Source: Escherichia coli (GTDB lineage Bacteria > Pseudomonadota > Gammaproteobacteria > Enterobacterales > Enterobacteriaceae). Taken from it: a stretch of DNA of 64,000 nucleotides. The stretch lies in NCBI RefSeq assembly GCF_050320075.1, contig NZ_CP190021.1; one strand, 5' to 3'. Shown in pieces: positions 3,751-47,685 of the stretch (its first letter is position 1; each line of letters opens with the position of its first letter). The notes beneath the pieces are model-generated. The model was not told the DNA's origin, did no database searches, and saw only the letters and a list, made by a program, of their open reading frames with translations. The translations under genes and the position numbers were made by a program.

Positions 3751-4211
3751 ACCAGGCATGTATATTTTACGCAGGGACACGCCGATCATGATCGTTTCAT
3801 ATCAGGGGTGGTCTGGAGGTCATGCGGCGTGTCCTCTGCACTCGCCGGAATAAGGAAGTCGCCGGCGGCTCCGCTTTTACCCGGCCATGCGGGGCATGGC
3901 CTTGTGGGGTTTCAGCTCTGTGGCCTCAGCGTCGTGTGCGGGCTGTGCCGTGCCTCCATCTTAGCCGGGCTGGCAGGGATGCAAGGGTACGCTTCGCCGC
4001 TGCGGTCACCCGGTCCCTCCTTCCCGTCTGCCGTGATTTTCCGGTCGTTCGTCCGCTCAGGTTTCGCGGCCTCACCCTGCAACTCCCGTCAGCCGTGTGC
4101 GTCAGGCTGCGGCTTCCCTTGCGCCCCTGCATCCCCGCCTTATCGCCCGGCTTTTATGGAGGCACGGCACCGCCCGGTGTCGCAGAACATGTGACTATGG
4201 AGGATTCGGGA

Positions 4212-8275: not shown

Positions 8276-8316
8276 TGACCTGGCTGTCCCGGCAGTCGTG
8301 ACGATGAGGAGACAAT

Positions 8317-9168
8317 GTGATGAATCAGACTTTACCCACTGCTGACCTGAATACTGCCGGCACGACAGATGTTATTCCGTCTGTGGCTATCGACCGCATC
8401 ATCGCGCAGCGTAACGAAGGTATTGCACTGTTCATGCAGGCGATGGAATGCCTGGCGACAGCGCGCAAGATTCTGCTCGATGCGTCAGGTGATATTTTTC
8501 TTTACGGGTTTGAAGACTGCGTGACTGATTCCGTTCGTCGCATAGATAAACCGGAAGAAGCGAAAAGGAATATCACCCGTCTTGCCGACCGGAAAATCTG
8601 GGACCGCCTGATGACAGATACGGGCATGTACACCTTCATGAGTTCATGCCAGCGTGATGAGTGGAACAGCCAGCTGATGAGCGACACCTGTCCTGAAATC
8701 ACCCTGGACAATGTACTGGCAACATTCCGCCATCTGAATGCCTGCAAGATGCAGACATTTGAACAGGGACTGATTGATGTCTACCGGAAATTGTCATGGG
8801 ATTACAGAACCAATAATCCCTGCCGTCTGGGTAAGAAAATCATTATTGAAAACCTGCTGTACCGCTGGAGTAACGGGCGTGTGACGCTGGACTGCAGCGG
8901 ACGGGAGGCACTGGATGACCTGGTACGTCCGTTTTATCTGCTGGAGGGGCGCAACGTTCCTGACTTCAGGAACAGTATCGGGGCGCAGTATGGTGAATTT
9001 CTCGGGAACGGCGACAATGTCGGTAAGCTGTTAGAAGGGGAATATTTTACGGTGCGTGGCTACCAGAAAGGGACCGTACACATTGTCTTTAAGCGTTCTG
9101 ACCTTGTTGAAAAACTGAATGATATTATTGCACGGCATTATCCAGGTGCATTGCCGCCACGAGTCTGA
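8317..9168 (+). CDS. hypothetical protein (283 aa), last + strand gene of the leading region before oriT
   Basis: ORF with AGGAGA RBS; adjacent GTG and ATG candidate starts at 8317 and 8320; no confidently recognised domain. Confidence 0.6.
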   Translation: MMNQTLPTADLNTAGTTDVIPSVAIDRIIAQRNEGIALFMQAMECLATARKILLDASGDIFLYGFEDCVTDSVRRIDKPEEAKRNITRLADRKIWDRLMTDTGMYTFMSSCQRDEWNSQLMSDTCPEITLDNVLATFRHLNACKMQTFEQGLIDVYRKLSWDYRTNNPCRLGKKIIIENLLYRWSNGRVTLDCSGREALDDLVRPFYLLEGRNVPDFRNSIGAQYGEFLGNGDNVGKLLEGEYFTVRGYQKGTVHIVFKRSDLVEKLNDIIARHYPGALPPRV

Positions 9169-9180
9169 TTAAACAGAAAA

Positions 9181-9210
9181 GCCCTGGTATTTATGCCGGG
9201 GCTTTTTTTT
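9181..9210 (+). terminator. Rho-independent terminator after ORF 8317
   Basis: Hairpin gccctgg-tatttat-gccggggc followed by T8. Confidence 0.7.
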
Positions 9211-9253
9211 CTGTAATCATCATAATCTCAGAACACGATGTGACATTGTCACA

Positions 9254-9595
9254 TCAATTGTTGTTCATATCGATGCCATCTTTCCTGCCTGAATCTGTCT
9301 TTTTAGGTGCTGTTTTAGAGGAAGAACGGCGGGATGGTTTTTTCGATTCTGCTTCCCGAATAATGTCACGAAGTGCCTTCTCTCCTACTTCATACCCTGC
9401 ATTTTTGAGCGTGTCACGAACATCTGCCAGTGTATAACCCTTTGTCCTTACCAGGACAATAATGTCATCACGAATGGCATCAAGAAAATCACGCAATGTT
9501 TTCCGTTGAGCGGTGAGATCTGGCAATTCCGATAAAGCAGCTTTTGCCAGCTGGATGTCATCATCTGAGTAAAATTTTTTAGAAGCCATTGGCAC
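9254..9595 (-). CDS. hypothetical protein with Lys/Arg/Ser-rich basic C-terminal tail (113 aa), possible DNA-binding protein, directly beside oriT
   Basis: ORF on the opposite strand to the other leading-region genes; basic tail ESKKPSRRSSSKTAPKKTDSGRK. Confidence 0.5.
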   Translation of the reverse strand: MPMASKKFYSDDDIQLAKAALSELPDLTAQRKTLRDFLDAIRDDIIVLVRTKGYTLADVRDTLKNAGYEVGEKALRDIIREAESKKPSRRSSSKTAPKKTDSGRKDGIDMNNN

Positions 9596-9647
9596 TTTCT
9601 CTCCGTTTCATGTTGAAGTCTGATTTTATCATCAAAAACTGACTCCT

Positions 9648-9776
9648 GGCAGGGCTGCGCCCTGCCTCTGCCGTCTGCATAAGACTATGATGCACAAAAA
9701 TAACAGGCTATAATGGCCTGAAAAACGGGACAGGATGTGCAATTGTATAACCGCGCACGCGCGATTATACAATTGC
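9648..9776. promoter_or_regulatory. oriT: origin of transfer (oriT) with predicted nick site on the - strand
   Basis: Inverted repeat ggcagggc-tgc-gccctgcc (9648-9666); 12-bp inverted-repeat arms gcaattgtataa/ttatacaattgc (9739-9776); minus-strand core CATCCTG/TCCCG resembling IncP/IncI nick regions, placing the nick near 9730/9731. Confidence 0.7.
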
Positions 9777-9821
9777 CTCCTGGTCAGGGCTTCGCCCCGA
9801 CACCCCAGTAAGGAGCTGACC

Positions 9822-10154
9822 GTGAGTGATAAACGTCAAAGAAGTGGTAGTGAAAGACGGCAAAAGACGATCCTGAGAGCGGTCCGGTTCTCACCGGATG
9901 AGGATGAAACTATCTGTAAGAATGCTGAAGATTCCGGACTTACTGTATCTGCTTACATCCGAAATGCAGCACTGAATAAGCGAATTAACTCCCGTACAGA
10001 TGATGCTTTTCTGAAGGAGTTAATGAGACTGGGAAGGATGCAGAAGCATCTGTTTGTTCAGGGAAAAAGAACCGGTGACAAGGAATACGCAGAAGTGCTT
10101 GTTGCCATAACCGAACTTACAAATACATTGCGTAAACAGTTAATGGAAGGTTGA
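9822..10154 (+). CDS. nikA: relaxosome accessory protein NikA (ribbon-helix-helix, 110 aa)
   Basis: GTG start after AAGGAG RBS, next to oriT and upstream of the relaxase; expected size. Confidence 0.8.
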   Translation: MSDKRQRSGSERRQKTILRAVRFSPDEDETICKNAEDSGLTVSAYIRNAALNKRINSRTDDAFLKELMRLGRMQKHLFVQGKRTGDKEYAEVLVAITELTNTLRKQLMEG

Positions 10155-10164
10155 GGATTCTCCG

Positions 10165-12864
10165 GTGAATGCAGTCATTCCGAAAAAGAGAAGGGACGGC
10201 AAGTCTTCGTTCGAAGACCTGGTATCCTACGTCTCTGTCCGGGATGACATGACCGATGAGGAACTGGATTTATCTTCTTCTTCGCAGGCTGAACAACCGC
10301 ACCGAAGCCGTTTCAGTCGCCTTGTTGATTATGCGACACGTCTTCGAAATGAGTCATTCGTGGCGCTGGTTGATGTCATGAAGGACGGCTGCGAATGGGT
10401 CAACTTTTATGGTGTCACCTGCTTTCATAACTGTACTTCTCTTGAAACTGCCGCTGCAGATATGGAGTACATTGCCCGGCAGGCACACTATGCAAAAGAT
10501 GACACTGACCCTGTTTTTCACTACATCCTTTCCTGGCAGTCACATGAAAGCCCGCGTCCGGAACAGATTTATGACAGTGTACGTCATACGCTGAAATCAC
10601 TCGGCCTTGCCGACCATCAGTATGTCTCTGCCGTGCATACTGATACAGATAATCTGCACGTCCATGTGGCTGTTAACCGGGTACACCCTGAAACGGGTTA
10701 TCTGAACCGGTTATCATGGAGTCAGGAAAAACTCAGTCGTGCCTGCCGTGAGCTTGAACTGAAGCATGGTTTTGCTCCGGATAACGGTTGCTGGGTCCAT
10801 GCGCCGGGAAATCGTATCGTTCGCAAAACTGCCGTTGAACGTGATCGCCAGAACGCCTGGACACGCGGAAAAAAACAAACTTTTCGTGAGTATGTTGCGC
10901 AGACAGCGGTCGCTGGTTTACGCAGTGAACCTGTACATGACTGGTTATCCCTGCATCGTCGTCTTGCGGAAGATGGTCTGTACCTGTCTCAGATGGACGG
11001 AAAATTTCTGGTGATGGATGGCTGGGATCGCAACAGGGAAGGTGTACAGCTTGACTCGTTTGGTCCCTCCTGGTGTGCAGAAAAACTCATGAAAAAAATG
11101 GGTGACTACACGCCAGTGCCAAAAGACATTTTCAGCCAGGTGGAAGCACCAGGACGCTATAATCCGGACTTCATTGCAGCTGATGTTCGCCCGGAAAAAA
11201 TCGCTGAAACAGAAAGTCTGCAGCAGTATGCCTGTCGTCATCTTGGAGAACGTCTGCCGGAAATGGCACGGGAAGGACGGCTGGAAAACTGCCTGGCTAT
11301 TCACCGCACACTGGCTGAAGCGGGATTATGGATGCGTGTTCAGCATGGTCACCTGGTTATCTGTGACGGTTATGATCATAACCAGACTCCCGTTCGTGCT
11401 GACAGCGTATGGTCACTGCTGACGCTCGACAATGTGAATCAACTCGATGGTGGCTGGCAGCCTGTACCAACAGATATTTTCCGCCAGGTTACGCCAACAG
11501 AACGCTTCCGTGGTCGTCGTATGGAGAGCTGTCCTGCGACCGATAAAGAATGGCACCGTATGCGTACAGGTACGGGGCCGCAGGGGGCTATCAAACGCGA
11601 ACTGTTTTCTGACAAAGAAAGTCTGTGGGGATACAGCATCAGCCATTGTAGCCCTCAGATTGAAGAAATGATCACACAGGGTGAGTTTACCTGGCAGCGT
11701 TGTCATGAGTTGTTTGCACAACAGGGACTGATGCTACAGAAACAACATCACGGGCTTGTTGTCGTTGATGCTTTTAATCATGAGCAAACGCCGGTGAAAG
11801 CCAGCAGCATTCATCCTGATCTGACACTGGGGCGTGCGGAGCCACAGGCCGGACCTTTTGTGAGTGCTCCAGCAGATTTGTTTGACAGGGTGCAACCTGA
11901 AAATCGCTATAACCCGGAGCTGGCTGTCAGTGACAGGTACGGGGTCAGCAGTAAACGTGACCCAATGCTGCGCCGGCAGCGACGTGAAGCCAGGGCTGAG
12001 GCCCGTGCTGACCTGCGTGCCCGCTATCTGGCATGGCGTGAACAATGGCGTAAACCGGATCTGCGTTATGGGGAACGTTGTCGGGAAATTCATCAGGCAT
12101 GCCGTCTGCGGAAGTCACACATTCGTGCGCAGTACGATGATCCGGCATTACGTAAGCTGCATTATCACATTGCAGAAGTTCAGCGAATGCAGGCATTGAT
12201 CAGGCTGAAAGAAGACATCAGGGATGAGCGACAGAAACTTATTGCTGACGGGAAATGGTATCCACCCTCTTACCGTCAGTGGGTCGAAATTCAGGCTGCT
12301 CAGGGAGACAGGGCTGCTGTATCGCAGTTGAGAGGCTGGGATTATCGCGATCGCCGTAAAGACAAGTCACGCACAACGACGACAGACCGCTGTGTCGTGC
12401 TTTGTGAACCGGGCGGAACGCCGGTATACGGTAATACCGGTGATCTCGAGGCCCGTCTGCAGAAGAACGGGAGTGTTCGTTTCCGTGACCGTCGGACGGG
12501 AGAGTTTGTCTGTACGGATTATGGTGACAGAGTTGTTTTCCGTAATCACCATGACCGCAATGCGCTGGCAGATAAACTGGATTTGATTGCACCGGTATTA
12601 TTCGGGCGTGATCCACGCATGGGGTTTGAACCAGAAGGAAACGACAAACAATTTAACCAGGTCTTTGCTGAAATGGTTGCCTGGCATAATGTGACAGGCC
12701 GTACCGGTCACGAAGACTACAGGATTACGCGACCGGACGTGGATCATCACCGTGAAGGAAGTGAACGCTACTACCGCGATTATATCGCGGCGAACAGCAA
12801 CGATGACGCATCACTGCCTCCGCCGGAGCAGGATAAACGCTGGGAACCGCCTTCTCCAGGTTAA
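10165..12864 (+). CDS. nikB: conjugative relaxase NikB (899 aa)
   Basis: Relaxase histidine triad HTDTDNLHVHVAVN; size and position match the IncI1 relaxase. Confidence 0.9.
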   Translation: MNAVIPKKRRDGKSSFEDLVSYVSVRDDMTDEELDLSSSSQAEQPHRSRFSRLVDYATRLRNESFVALVDVMKDGCEWVNFYGVTCFHNCTSLETAAADMEYIARQAHYAKDDTDPVFHYILSWQSHESPRPEQIYDSVRHTLKSLGLADHQYVSAVHTDTDNLHVHVAVNRVHPETGYLNRLSWSQEKLSRACRELELKHGFAPDNGCWVHAPGNRIVRKTAVERDRQNAWTRGKKQTFREYVAQTAVAGLRSEPVHDWLSLHRRLAEDGLYLSQMDGKFLVMDGWDRNREGVQLDSFGPSWCAEKLMKKMGDYTPVPKDIFSQVEAPGRYNPDFIAADVRPEKIAETESLQQYACRHLGERLPEMAREGRLENCLAIHRTLAEAGLWMRVQHGHLVICDGYDHNQTPVRADSVWSLLTLDNVNQLDGGWQPVPTDIFRQVTPTERFRGRRMESCPATDKEWHRMRTGTGPQGAIKRELFSDKESLWGYSISHCSPQIEEMITQGEFTWQRCHELFAQQGLMLQKQHHGLVVVDAFNHEQTPVKASSIHPDLTLGRAEPQAGPFVSAPADLFDRVQPENRYNPELAVSDRYGVSSKRDPMLRRQRREARAEARADLRARYLAWREQWRKPDLRYGERCREIHQACRLRKSHIRAQYDDPALRKLHYHIAEVQRMQALIRLKEDIRDERQKLIADGKWYPPSYRQWVEIQAAQGDRAAVSQLRGWDYRDRRKDKSRTTTTDRCVVLCEPGGTPVYGNTGDLEARLQKNGSVRFRDRRTGEFVCTDYGDRVVFRNHHDRNALADKLDLIAPVLFGRDPRMGFEPEGNDKQFNQVFAEMVAWHNVTGRTGHEDYRITRPDVDHHREGSERYYRDYIAANSNDDASLPPPEQDKRWEPPSPG

Positions 12865-12870
12865 AAAAAA

Positions 12871-12895
12871 GGCCGCGCCAGAATCCGGCGCGGCC
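12871..12895 (-). terminator. terminator hairpin between convergent nikB and trbC
   Basis: GC-rich hairpin ggccgcgcc-agaatc-cggcgcggcc preceded on the + strand by an A8 run (a T-run on the - strand). Confidence 0.65.
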
Positions 12896-12900
12896 ACTGT

Positions 12901-46446: not shown

Positions 46447-46465
46447 CACCGACCGGATTGGCACG
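46447..46465 (-). repeat. shufflon sfx repeat 2
   Basis: reverse complement gtgccaatccggtcggtgg. Confidence 0.9.
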
Positions 46466-46472
46466 TAGGCCA

Positions 46473-46491
46473 GTGCCAATCCGGTACTTGG
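46473..46491 (+). repeat. shufflon sfx repeat 3
   Basis: gtgccaatccggtacttgg. Confidence 0.9.
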
Positions 46492-46820: not shown

Positions 46821-47307
46821 AGAAAGGTAGGATCTGGTGAGCTTCAAATTGCTACAGCACAGGCCACAGGTTGGCGCTTTCCTGGAGCAACAGCTACTTG
46901 TCCAACTGGAAAACGTGTTACAGGTGGCGGCGGAATATGCACCTCACGAACTGGTTACATATGGCTTACCAGGTCATTCCCATCAGCCAATAACTCATGG
47001 TCGGCTGCGTGCGATACAACCGAAGATCAGAATGGTTCAATAACTGTATATGCCATTTGCCAATAAGCTATTTCAAGCAAGTAATCTTCATAAAGTAGGA
47101 CGAATACTGTGTGTAGTTTTTGGCTTGCCAAGTCATCTCGCCGTTAGAGTCAGGCATGTCAATAGGAACGACTTCTGTTTCTGCCATTTCACGCCCGTCA
47201 ATACGATAGGTGTTAATACACAGTTTAAACCTCCCTAAGACCTGTGTGTTTTTGGGATATAACGTAAATGTTTTTATATTCGTCCATATCGACGCTGATG
47301 ATGATTT

Positions 47308-47326
47308 CCAGGTACCGGATTGGCAC
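47308..47326 (-). repeat. shufflon sfx repeat 5
   Basis: reverse complement gtgccaatccggtacctgg. Confidence 0.9.
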
Positions 47327-47334
47327 GTAGGCCA

Positions 47335-47353
47335 GTGCCAATCCGGTACGTGG
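47335..47353 (+). repeat. shufflon sfx repeat 6
   Basis: gtgccaatccggtacgtgg. Confidence 0.9.
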
Positions 47354-47685
47354 AAGACTTCTGGTTCGCTCAATGGTTCTTACACAAACTTAGGTTCACA
47401 TAGAGGTTCATTCTCAGGGCGGAATTCAGGGGGCAGTACATTGTTTATTTATGCATCTGGAGGTAATGGAGGATCTGCCGGAGGTGCATGTGCAAATACA
47501 TCCCGACTGCAGGGATATGTTGGTGGGACGCTAATTAGCGTGAATGCCAGCAATAACCCTGCATATGGAAAAACAGCCTTTATCAGCTTTGCTGTACCTG
47601 CAGGTACTTCCTATCAGATAACATCCTATCCAACAGAAAATACATCATGTGGTGCCGGGGTATTTTCAGTATTTGGATATCAAAC

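What the first reader, a model, noticed from the sequence alone, without database searches (positions are those of the whole stretch)
9648..9776. oriT architecture and predicted nick position
Two inverted repeats (9648-9666 and the 12-bp arms at 9739-9776 around a GC-rich near-palindromic core) flank a minus-strand CATCCTG/TCCCG core that resembles known nick regions. The predicted nick on the - strand near 9730/9731 sets transfer polarity so that the leading region (9600 down to 99) enters first. That polarity matches the + strand orientation of psiB and ardA.
Basis: partly seen in the sequence, partly recalled or inferred. Interest (0 to 1): 0.35.

Follow-up and report, generated by a model that had tools for sequence, protein, structure and literature searches.

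The report
Known IncI1-type plasmid transfer origin

Summary
Window 9596-9821 is the yggA-nikA intergenic region of an I-complex conjugative plasmid. It is 100% identical to pFORC44_1 and about 94% identical to R64 and ColIb-P9. The minus strand reads 5'-...GCACATCCTG|TCCCG-3'.

Eight nucleotides 5' of the nick lies an inverted repeat with 18-nt arms and one mismatch (9739-9756 / 9759-9776), not 12-nt arms. Nine of its 15 outer pairs show compensatory changes across 15 related origins.

The 9648-9666 hairpin is real and conserved. However, it lies outside the roughly 80-bp module (about 9726-9806) that small mobilisable plasmids carry, and it overlaps the -35 box of a yggA promoter-like site.

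The polarity is correct: yggA, ardA and psiB enter first, and the transferred strand is the template for the plus-strand leading genes.

The only departure from R64 is a 176-bp patch (9748-9923). It swaps the inner repeat and NikA residues 1-34 together, which looks like a matched specificity allele, and it occurs in 141 database plasmids. Interest is low.

The parts
9726..9738 (-). Nick region. The minus strand reads 5'-ACATCCTG|TCCCG-3'. The predicted NikB cleavage is between G(9731) and T(9730).
   Evidence: Identical to R64 and ColIb-P9. The R64 nic was mapped as CGGGA/CAGGA (PMC5789077 Supp. Table S1). The region is conserved in all related origins collected and shares CACATCCTG with R751.
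9739..9756 (.). Repeat A, the nick-proximal arm of the large inverted repeat (GCAATTGTATAACCGCGC). By homology it is the NikA-binding arm. Its outer end lies 8 nt from the nick.
   Evidence: ACCG at 9750-9753 is present at this position in 14 of the 15 aligned origins (CCCG in L011), and the matching positions of the distal arm vary. NikA binding to one arm is known for R64 (Furuya & Komano 1995, title cited in PMC5789077; 'nick region and repeat A' core, PMC4743918).
9759..9776 (.). Repeat B, the distal arm of the large inverted repeat (GCGCGATTATACAATTGC).
   Evidence: I1. Nine of the 15 outer pairs covary across 15 origins. This arm is degenerate in several small oriT-only plasmids.
9783..9801 (.). 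The 8-bp inverted repeat of the minimal oriT (GTCAGGGC ttc GCCCCGAC).
   Evidence: Identical to R64. It is 99% paired and almost invariant in 15 origins. It is described as the second repeat set of the R64 oriT (PMC3817090).
9726..9806 (.). The portable oriT module: nick region, large inverted repeat, 8-bp repeat and GACACCCC.
   Evidence: Matches from small plasmids lacking nikB cover only query positions 22-108, which is window 9721-9807. Their flanks diverge outside this span.
9648..9666 (.). Leading-side hairpin IR1 (GGCAGGGC tgc GCCCTGCC). It is conserved but outside the portable oriT, and it is a candidate operator overlapping the -35 box of a yggA promoter-like site.
   Evidence: I14. 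Compensatory changes occur in L008 (GGCAGTGC/GCACTGCC) and L012 (GGCAGGAC/GTCCTGCC). A promoter-like site on the minus strand has its -35 at 9652-9647 and its -10 at 9628-9623. IR1 is absent from small oriT-only plasmids.
9709..9714 (+). TATAAT hexamer invariant in seven aligned large I-type plasmids. It is a candidate -10 box for nikAB transcription reading across the oriT.
   Evidence: Invariant columns in alignment A3. The consensus scan found no matching -35, so this is an inference only.
9822..10154 (+). nikA, the ribbon-helix-helix relaxosome accessory protein (110 aa, GTG start).
   Evidence: Pfam NikA-like PF21983, E=6.5e-22. It matches PDB 2BA3, R64 NikA(1-51). It is 88% identical to R64 NikA, and all 13 differences fall in residues 1-34.
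10165..12864 (+). nikB, a MOBP-family relaxase (899 aa).
   Evidence: 894 of 899 residues identical to R64 NikB. Pfam Relaxase and TraI_middle. NCBIfam TraI/MobA(P) relaxase. It shares the motif HTDTDNLHVHVAVN with R751 TraI.
9254..9589 (-). yggA, the first gene on the leading side of the nick, transcribed away from the oriT.
   Evidence: Annotated in pFORC44_1, pN367, R64 and ColIb-P9. PMC6112013 calls it the first gene in the R64 leading region, and its pCTX-M3 homologue orf35 represses nikA/tra.
9748..9923 (.). Patch that diverges from R64 and R621a: the inner halves of both repeat arms, the nikA ribosome-binding spacer, and nikA codons 1-34.
   Evidence: 51 of the 118 differences from R64 across 8300-12900 fall within these 176 bp. 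The background is about 1%.

Best explanation

By homology with R64 it works as follows. The ribbon-helix-helix protein NikA binds the nick-proximal arm (repeat A, 9739-9756) of the 18-nt-arm inverted repeat on duplex DNA. It positions the relaxase NikB on the nick region 8 nt away. NikB cuts the minus strand between G9731 and T9730 and stays covalently attached to the 5' T. That strand is unwound and exported 5' to 3' through the Tra/Trb system, so yggA, ardA, psiA, psiB and the upstream ssb region enter the recipient first, and nikAB and the two repeats enter last. When the repeats and a regenerated nick region arrive at the end of a round, they are used to terminate transfer and recircularise the strand.

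Shown here: sequence identity with the mapped R64 nic, the repeat geometry, covariation of the repeat arms, the neighbouring nikA-nikB genes, and the gene orientations. Inferred from R64 and RP4 biochemistry: protein binding, cleavage chemistry and the termination role.

The 9648-9666 hairpin is most likely a regulatory element of the divergent yggA promoter, not part of the nicking substrate.
For: The intergenic region is identical to R64 and ColIb-P9 except inside the large repeat, at 9778-9779 just beyond it, and in the nikA leader just upstream of the start codon. The R64 nic is CGGGA/CAGGA and ColIb-P9 has the same sequence at the corresponding position. NikB is 99% identical to R64 NikB. 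NikA carries a NikA-like domain and matches 2BA3.

The large repeat has 9 of 15 pairs with compensatory changes and 91.6% of cells paired, against 32-50% in the slid controls. The transferred-strand segment folds at -27.4 kcal/mol, z = -6.3.

The 8-nt spacing between repeat and nick is constant in the origins collected, except L011, where the repeat can extend one pair closer. The same 8-nt spacer, ACATCCTG, is found in R751. The MOBP nick consensus is (C/T)ATCCTG(C/T), with the relaxase attached at the 5' end (PMC3772185).

Hits from small plasmids retain only window 9721-9807 (1,718 matching records are typed mobilizable). An R64-like oriT of this kind on pEC156 is mobilised by R64drd11 (PMC4743918).

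yggA is the first leading-region gene of R64, and leading-region genes are oriented for transcription from the transferred strand. 280 of 291 plasmids carrying this or the nearest allele are typed conjugative.
Against: No experiment exists for this allele. Repeat A differs from the R64 NikA site at 4 of 17 positions, and the repeat is 2 bp shorter overall, so binding and exact cleavage are extrapolated.

The primary R64 papers (Furuya & Komano 1991, 1995, 1997, 2000, 2003) are not in the held library. The mapped nic is therefore taken from a secondary table, and their other conclusions from titles and citing papers.

The nick motif alone occurs 19 times in the window.
Confidence: 0.93

Rival explanations
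1. The large palindrome is only a transcriptional operator or 5'-leader structure of the nikAB operon (NikA autoregulation), not a substrate for DNA processing.
For: It lies between an invariant TATAAT (9709-9714) and the nikA start, so a nikAB transcript would include it. NikA-family proteins score weakly against RP4-type 'transcriptional regulator TraJ' and RelB antitoxin models. In pCTX-M3 the nikA/tra operon is under repression.
Against: The same roughly 80-bp module sits on more than a thousand small plasmids that have no nikA or nikB to regulate. Such a module confers mobilisation by R64. The nick region is identical to a mapped nic. A regulatory role may coexist with the oriT role but cannot replace it.
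Confidence: 0.03
2. The origin is of the R64 type, but this allele is a non-functional or mismatched recombinant. In that case the altered repeat A would no longer be recognised, and transfer would depend on another site or a helper.
For: The 176-bp patch is clearly recombinant. Other messy mosaics exist, such as L021, where repeat A and repeat B no longer match well.
Against: The patch replaces the inner repeat and the NikA N-terminus together. Both arms changed in a compensating way, leaving 18-nt arms with the mismatch at the same position as in R64. The allele is found unchanged in 136 plasmids at 99% identity or more, from E. coli, Salmonella, Shigella, E. albertii and E. fergusonii, nearly all typed conjugative. 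No second oriT-like site exists in the window.
Confidence: 0.03
3. The 9648-9666 hairpin is an integral, required part of the oriT, as the reader's 'two flanking repeats' architecture implies. It could, for example, be a binding site on the leading side of the nick comparable to the RP4 TraK-binding region.
For: It is conserved with two compensatory changes in divergent large plasmids. With its flank it is a roughly 30-nt direct-repeat copy of the 8-bp repeat region (9637-9666 against 9771-9800, D3 and D4). The nikA/oriT/yggA layout mirrors traJ/oriT/traK of R751.
Against: It is absent from all small plasmids that carry the mobilisable module. It overlaps the -35 box of a promoter-like site that faces yggA. 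YggA shows no detectable similarity to R751 TraK or to any Pfam, NCBIfam or PDB entry. From my own knowledge, the R64 minimal oriT of 92 bp does not reach this far.
Confidence: 0.15

Closest known systems
oriT of IncI1 plasmids R64 and ColIb-P9 (NikA/NikB relaxosome, MOBP12)
   Same: The nick region, the 8-bp repeat, the 9 outer bp of both arms of the large repeat, the 8-nt spacing between repeat and nick, and the position upstream of nikA-nikB with yggA divergent are all the same. NikB is 99% identical and the 75 C-terminal residues of NikA are 100% identical. The leading-region gene set and orientation are the same.
   Different: The inner halves of the repeat differ: R64 has 17-nt arms with a 6-nt spacer, and this allele has 18-nt arms with a 2-nt loop. 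Four of 17 positions in repeat A differ. Thirteen substitutions fall in NikA residues 1-34, including the predicted DNA-reading beta-strand (TVVRTLRF becomes TILRAVRF). There are two substitutions at 9778-9779.
oriT of IncP plasmids RP4 and R751 (TraJ/TraI/TraK relaxosome)
   Same: The transferred strand carries CACATCCTG|Y and a long imperfect inverted repeat ending 8 nt 5' of the nick. The divergent gene layout is the same: accessory protein plus relaxase on one side, the leader gene on the other. NikA and TraJ are 31% identical, E=2e-8. NikB and TraI share the HxDTDNLHxH motif, E=2e-21.
   Different: The repeat sequences are unrelated. R751 has no 8-bp GTCAGGGC/GCCCCGAC repeat. YggA is not detectably related to TraK. 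The mating system is MPF-I, not MPF-T.
R64-like oriT modules on small Col-type plasmids (pEC156, pCE10D, pKST23, and the NTP16/pCERC7 nikA-only family)
   Same: They carry the same roughly 80-bp module: nick region, repeat A with ACCG, and the 8-bp repeat. pEC156 is mobilised by R64.
   Different: They have no nikB and usually no nikA. Repeat B is often degenerate. Their repeat A variants (for example GTAATCGTATAACCGCGC) share the inner half, but not the outer half, with the window allele.
IncB/O/K/Z and pESI-type I-complex oriT/NikA alleles (for example pBOKZ_020007, pSTM37-118, pSA20075157.1)
   Same: The architecture is the same. pSA20075157.1 has the nearest NikA N-terminus (beta-strand TLLRAVRF) and the same inner repeat (TATAACCGCGCACGCGCG).
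   Different: Their outer repeat positions differ. The rest of NikA is only 65-75% identical in the K/Z types, whereas the window keeps an R64 backbone.

Membership tests
IncI1 / R64-type oriT | Nick-region sequence equal to the experimentally mapped R64 nic (complement CGGGA/CAGGA; transferred strand TCCTG|TCCCG) | tested here: met
   Window 9726-9735 is CGGGACAGGA and is identical to R64 and ColIb-P9. The nic is taken from PMC5789077 Supp. Table S1.
IncI1 / R64-type oriT | Long imperfect inverted repeat whose proximal arm ends 8 nt 5' of the nick on the nicked strand | tested here: met
   The arms are 9739-9756 and 9759-9776, 18 nt with one mismatch. Bases 9731-9738 are the 8-nt spacer. The geometry is the same in R64.
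IncI1 / R64-type oriT | Second, 8-bp inverted repeat distal to the large repeat | tested here: met
   9783-9790 / 9794-9801 is identical to R64 and nearly invariant in 15 origins. It is described for R64 in PMC3817090.
IncI1 / R64-type oriT | Located immediately upstream of a nikA (RHH accessory protein) and nikB (relaxase) operon | tested here: met
IncI1 / R64-type oriT | Repeat A sequence equal to the R64 NikA-binding site | tested here: inconclusive
   13 of 17 positions are identical, and the differences are matched by changes in the NikA N-terminus. Cross-recognition by R64 NikA cannot be judged from sequence.
IncI1 / R64-type oriT | NikA binding to repeat A, and NikA/NikB-dependent strand- and site-specific nicking | not testable with these tools
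   This requires EMSA or footprinting and in vitro or in vivo nick mapping.
IncI1 / R64-type oriT | Transfer polarity: the yggA / ardA / psiB / ssb side leads and nikAB enters last | tested here: met
   The 5' to 3' direction of the ATCCTG strand runs towards lower coordinates. yggA is the first leading gene of R64. The leading genes are on the plus strand. This is an inference from strand geometry, not a transfer experiment.
MOBP nick-region superfamily (IncP, Ti border, R64) | Consensus (C/T)ATCCTG(C/T) on the nicked strand, next to an upstream inverted repeat | tested here: met
   CATCCTGT at 9737-9730 on the minus strand. The consensus is from PMC3772185. R751 comparison.
MOBP nick-region superfamily (IncP, Ti border, R64) | Relaxase with the MOBP histidine motif HxDxD(N)xHxH | tested here: met
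   NikB 157-170 reads HTDTDNLHVHVAVN and aligns to R751 TraI HNDTDNLHIHIAIN. NCBIfam TraI/MobA(P) scores 410 bits.

The most novel reading that the evidence does not exclude
The 176-bp patch (9748-9923) may be a specificity cassette. It exchanges the inner half of the NikA-binding repeat and the DNA-reading N-terminus of NikA together, on an otherwise R64-like backbone.

If so, this oriT/NikA pair would be functionally orthogonal to the R64 pair. That would change which small oriT-only plasmids the plasmid can mobilise. It would also limit cross-talk between co-resident I-complex plasmids.

The left junction cannot be resolved between 9719 and 9748, an interval that includes the nick. The patch could therefore have arisen partly through relaxase-mediated oriT-oriT recombination.
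Probability: 0.3. Interest if true: 0.35.

Novelty: already known. Interest (0 to 1): 0.12.

Why it matters
Knowing the oriT and its nick position fixes which end of this resistance-type plasmid enters a recipient first. That explains why ardA, psiB and ssb sit where they do and face the way they do.

Beyond that, this is textbook IncI1 biology, and the feature could have been annotated by homology. The only mildly useful by-product is the observation that I-complex plasmids carry several matched NikA N-terminus / repeat A alleles. These alleles may determine which of the very common small oriT-only plasmids each conjugative plasmid can mobilise.

Tried and rejected
- The primary R64 papers (Furuya & Komano 1991, 1997, 2000, 2003) could not be read. 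The mapped nic was taken from a secondary supplementary table instead.
- One literature search with match 'anywhere' was swamped by unrelated hits, and one was rejected for syntax.
- YggA was tested as a possible TraK analogue or known DNA-binding fold. It has no Pfam, NCBIfam or PDB sequence match and no BLASTP similarity to R751 TraK. No structure prediction was run, because it lies outside the finding.
- R621a (IncI-gamma) was checked as a possible source of the variant allele. It carries the R64-type NikA, so the allele does not simply track the IncI-gamma replicon type.
- A genome contigs pattern scan found no lineages beyond Enterobacterales-type plasmids. Of 48 hits, 14 were chance matches in GC-rich genomes. 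Many others were tiny, low-coverage contigs in unrelated taxa and are probably contaminants.
- The sigma-70 consensus scan did not support a canonical nikA promoter. The TATAAT at 9709-9714 is proposed only because it is invariant.
- The terminator-like hairpin at 9720-9704 on the minus strand is not conserved as a hairpin in L008, so I do not treat it as functional.
- No second oriT copy was found in the window.

Full report
**What is in the sequence.**

Window 9596-9821 is an intergenic region. To its left is a minus-strand ORF (yggA, 9254-9589). To its right are two plus-strand genes: nikA (9822-10154, GTG start) and nikB (10165-12864). The genes trbC, trbB and trbA lie beyond these on the minus strand.

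Pfam assigns NikA-like (PF21983) to nikA, and Relaxase plus TraI_middle to nikB. Upstream plus-strand ORFs are a ParB-like protein, PsiB, PsiA and ArdA.

The 231 bases around the finding are 100% identical to E. coli plasmid pFORC44_1, which is typed IncI-gamma/K1, MOBP, MPF-I. They match 2,132 PLSDB plasmids, most at 90-95% identity. R64 (NC_005014) and ColIb-P9 (NC_002122) have the same gene order.

**Checking the observation.**

The repeat finder reports the 9648-9655 / 9659-9666 hairpin (8 of 8 pairs, 3-nt loop). It reports the large repeat as 18-nt arms, 9739-9756 / 9759-9776, 94% complementary with 2 nt between them.

Repeats of this quality (arms of at least 14 nt, at most one mismatch) occur at only 5 loci in the 64-kb window, against 0.2 per shuffled sequence. 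By contrast, perfect hairpins with arms of at least 8 nt are common: 32 in the window, against 5.3 in shuffles. The left hairpin therefore needs other support.

The minus strand reads CATCCTGT at 9737-9730. YATCCTGY occurs 19 times in the window, so only the context makes this copy special.

**Identity with R64.**

Aligned with R64, ColIb-P9 and pN367, the window's intergenic region matches ColIb-P9 at every position except four places:
- the inner part of the large repeat;
- two bases just beyond it (9778-9779);
- a 1-nt insertion at 9806/9807, just upstream of the nikA ribosome-binding site;
- the spacer in front of the nikA start codon.

R64 shows two further single-base differences, at 9652 and 9719.

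R64 has GCAATTGTAATACCGTC-acacgc-GACGCTATTACAATTGC, which is 17-nt arms with one mismatch. The window has GCAATTGTATAACCGCGC-ac-GCGCGATTATACAATTGC. The mismatch is at the same position (13) in both.

A published compilation of experimentally mapped nic sites gives R64 as CGGGA/CAGGA, with the nick in the middle. This is the complement of the transferred strand and is credited to Furuya et al. 1991. The same compilation gives ColIb-P9 position 39635 (PMC5789077 supplement).

In the window this decamer occupies 9726-9735. The nick therefore falls between 9730 and 9731, on the strand that reads ATCCTG|T, which is the minus strand. The 8 bases 9731-9738 separate the nick from the first base of the repeat.

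I could not read the primary R64 papers. My statements about NikA binding one arm, the requirement for precise spacing, and the roles of the two repeat sets in termination rest on three things: their titles, citing papers (PMC4743918; PMC3817090; PMC5789077; PMC4652767), and my own knowledge.

**Comparative evidence that the parts are functional.**

A more sensitive search finds 3,795 plasmids with related sequence. In the sampled small plasmids, of about 1.5-9 kb, the match covers only query positions 22-108, which is window 9721-9807 (1,718 of the matching records are typed mobilizable).

I extracted 15 distinct origins from I1, I-gamma/K1, K2/Z and other large plasmids and from small Col-type plasmids, and aligned the transferred strand. 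The results were:
- The nick region CACATCCTGTCC is essentially invariant.
- The 8-bp repeat GTCGGGGC-gaa-GCCCTGAC and the following GGGGTGTC are essentially invariant.
- The large repeat varies, but in a compensating way. Of its 15 outer pairs, 9 show changes on both sides, and 91.6% of cells pair, against 32-50% when the partner columns are slid.
- The position-13 mismatch is kept as a non-pair or wobble in most sequences.
- ACCG (9750-9753) is present in repeat A of 14 of the 15 origins (CCCG in L011), and the matching positions of repeat B vary.
- Repeat B is degenerate in several small plasmids.

This asymmetry fits the R64 picture: initiation needs only the nick region plus repeat A (PMC4743918), and the full hairpins matter for termination.

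As single-stranded DNA, the transferred strand folds into the two hairpins at -27.4 kcal/mol (z = -6.3). A pattern scan of species-representative genomes returned 34 further true modules of this kind and no new lineage.

**The left hairpin (9648-9666).**

This hairpin is retained in divergent large plasmids. Two compensatory changes occur: GGCAGTGC/GCACTGCC in an Enterobacter plasmid and GGCAGGAC/GTCCTGCC in L012. It is followed by an invariant CTGCC..TGCCGTC. The small oriT-only plasmids lack it entirely.

Its left arm coincides with the -35 hexamer of the only promoter-like site found in the region. That site is on the minus strand and faces yggA. The corresponding -10 remains a plausible TAnnAT in the divergent relatives.

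yggA is called the first gene of the R64 leading region. Its pCTX-M3 homologue orf35 represses nikA/tra transcription (PMC6112013).

I therefore read this hairpin as a promoter or operator element of the divergent yggA/nikA control region, not as part of the nicking substrate. A role in an extended oriT is not excluded (confidence 0.15). With its flank, the hairpin is also an imperfect direct copy of the 8-bp repeat region (D3 and D4), and I cannot explain this.

**Polarity.**

Relaxases of this family stay attached to the 5' side of the cut, and the strand is transferred 5' to 3' (PMC3772185; PMC4743918). On the minus strand, 5' to 3' runs towards lower coordinates. So 9730 enters first, followed by yggA, then ardA, psiA, psiB and the ParB-like gene. 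nikAB and the repeats enter last.

Ten of the 14 annotated genes between position 1 and 9600 are on the plus strand. The incoming minus strand is their template. This is the arrangement reported for leading-region anti-defence, SSB and Psi genes (PMC11541004; PMC12672017).

Consistent with this, the transferred strand upstream of ardA folds into a very large hairpin of roughly 270 nt (z = -5.9). It resembles the single-strand promoters described upstream of ardA in a related plasmid.

**Relation to IncP.**

R751 has the same layout: traK (minus strand), then GCGGG|CAGGATGT followed by a 19-bp imperfect repeat, then traJ-traI (plus strand). The transferred strands share CACATCCTG.

NikA and TraJ are 31% identical (E=2e-8). 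NikB and TraI share the motif HxDTDNLHxHxAxN. YggA and TraK show no detectable similarity.

**The one departure from R64.**

Across 8300-12900 the window differs from R64 at about 1% of positions. The exception is 9748-9923, where 51 differences fall in 176 bp. This patch covers the inner halves of both repeat arms and nikA codons 1-34.

All 13 NikA substitutions lie in residues 1-34. This is the part solved as the ribbon-helix-helix DNA-binding domain (PDB 2BA3). The remaining 75 residues are identical to R64 NikA.

Across the alleles collected, repeat A positions 9-11 track NikA residues 20-21:
- AAT goes with T-L (R64 and an Enterobacter plasmid);
- ATA goes with A-V (the window, pSA20075157.1 and a K2/Z plasmid);
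- CGG goes with T-A;
- TAT goes with P-V;
- ATT goes with R-I.

One obvious mosaic, L021, is an exception. This suggests matched specificity alleles, but the number of independent lineages is small and nothing here tests binding.

The window allele is present in 141 PLSDB plasmids, and R621a carries the R64 type. RefSeq labels this NikA generically as 'MobA'.

**Verdict.**

The finding is a correct recognition of a well-characterised element. The nick position, strand and polarity are supported. The architecture needs three corrections: the arms are 18 nt, the true second repeat is at 9783-9801, and the 9648-9666 hairpin is probably regulatory. The novelty of the finding as stated is nil. The allele-swap observation is a modest by-product.

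Noticed in passing
window 9748-9923: A 176-bp patch is 29% divergent from R64 and R621a on a backbone that is about 99% identical. It covers the inner repeat arms and nikA codons 1-34. Across alleles, the NikA beta-strand residues co-vary with repeat A positions 9-11. The nearest relative of the patch is the pSA20075157.1/pESI type, at 84% identity.
   Followed up: partly
window 9637-9666 versus 9771-9800: The leading-side hairpin plus its flank (AACTGACTCCTGGCAGGGCTGCGCCC) is an imperfect direct repeat of the 8-bp repeat region of the oriT (AATTGCCTCCTGGTCAGGGCTTCGCCC). The window's substitutions at 9778-9779, relative to R64, make the two copies more alike. I have no explanation for this.
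   Followed up: partly
window 9731-9735 and 9778-9782: CAGGA of the nick core and TCCTG just beyond repeat B are complementary. In the folded transferred strand the large hairpin therefore extends until the nick sits at the base of the stem. R64 keeps a similar pairing with a 1-nt bulge (CAGATG against CATCCTG). No covariation test is possible because the nick core is invariant.
   Followed up: no
window 9709-9714 (+): This TATAAT hexamer is invariant in all seven large I-type plasmids aligned, including the most divergent ones. It lies 16 nt on the leading side of the nick. It is a candidate -10 box for nikAB, but no recognisable -35 was found.
   Followed up: no
window about 3915-4190 (minus strand): The transferred strand upstream of ardA folds into a hairpin of roughly 270 nt (z = -5.9). 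It resembles the single-strand promoters reported upstream of ardA and klcA in a related IncI plasmid (PMC12672017).
   Followed up: partly
window 46452-46485 and 47306-47355: These are long near-perfect inverted repeats containing GTGCCAATCCGGT. They look like inverted sfx recombination sites of the IncI shufflon (identification from my own knowledge).
   Followed up: no
L033, L035, L039, L041, L047, L058, L066, L069, L072 and other genome-contig hits: Identical R64-type oriT modules occur on tiny, often low-coverage contigs in assemblies of unrelated taxa, including Mycobacterium, Bacillus, Bradyrhizobium, Micromonospora and Flagellimonas. The most likely cause is contamination by small enterobacterial Col-type plasmids.
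   Followed up: no
window 9254-9589 (yggA) and 9822-10154 (nikA); L001 annotation: RefSeq names YggA 'molybdopterin-guanine dinucleotide biosynthesis protein MobC', which looks like a wrong expansion of the mobilisation name MobC. It names this NikA allele only 'MobA'. YggA has no Pfam, NCBIfam or PDB match.
   Followed up: partly
window 10165-12864 (NikB residues 12-23 and 48-59): NikB carries two segments that resemble the relaxase tyrosine motif: GKSSFEDLVSYV and SRFSRLVDYATR. They can be compared with R751 TraI GKSDFAGLANYI. BLAST aligns TraI residue 11 to NikB residue 60, so NikB appears to have an N-terminal extension or duplication of this motif.
   Followed up: no
whole window: YATCCTGY occurs 19 times, against 8.2 +/- 3.1 expected from dinucleotide shuffles. 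None of the other copies lies next to a long inverted repeat. The excess is unexplained.
   Followed up: no
L005 (R64) position equivalent to window 9652: The R64 record lacks one G in the left arm of the 9648-9666 hairpin (GGCA-GGC), which breaks the perfect stem seen in ColIb-P9, pN367 and the window. This is either a real variant or an error in the old record.
   Followed up: no
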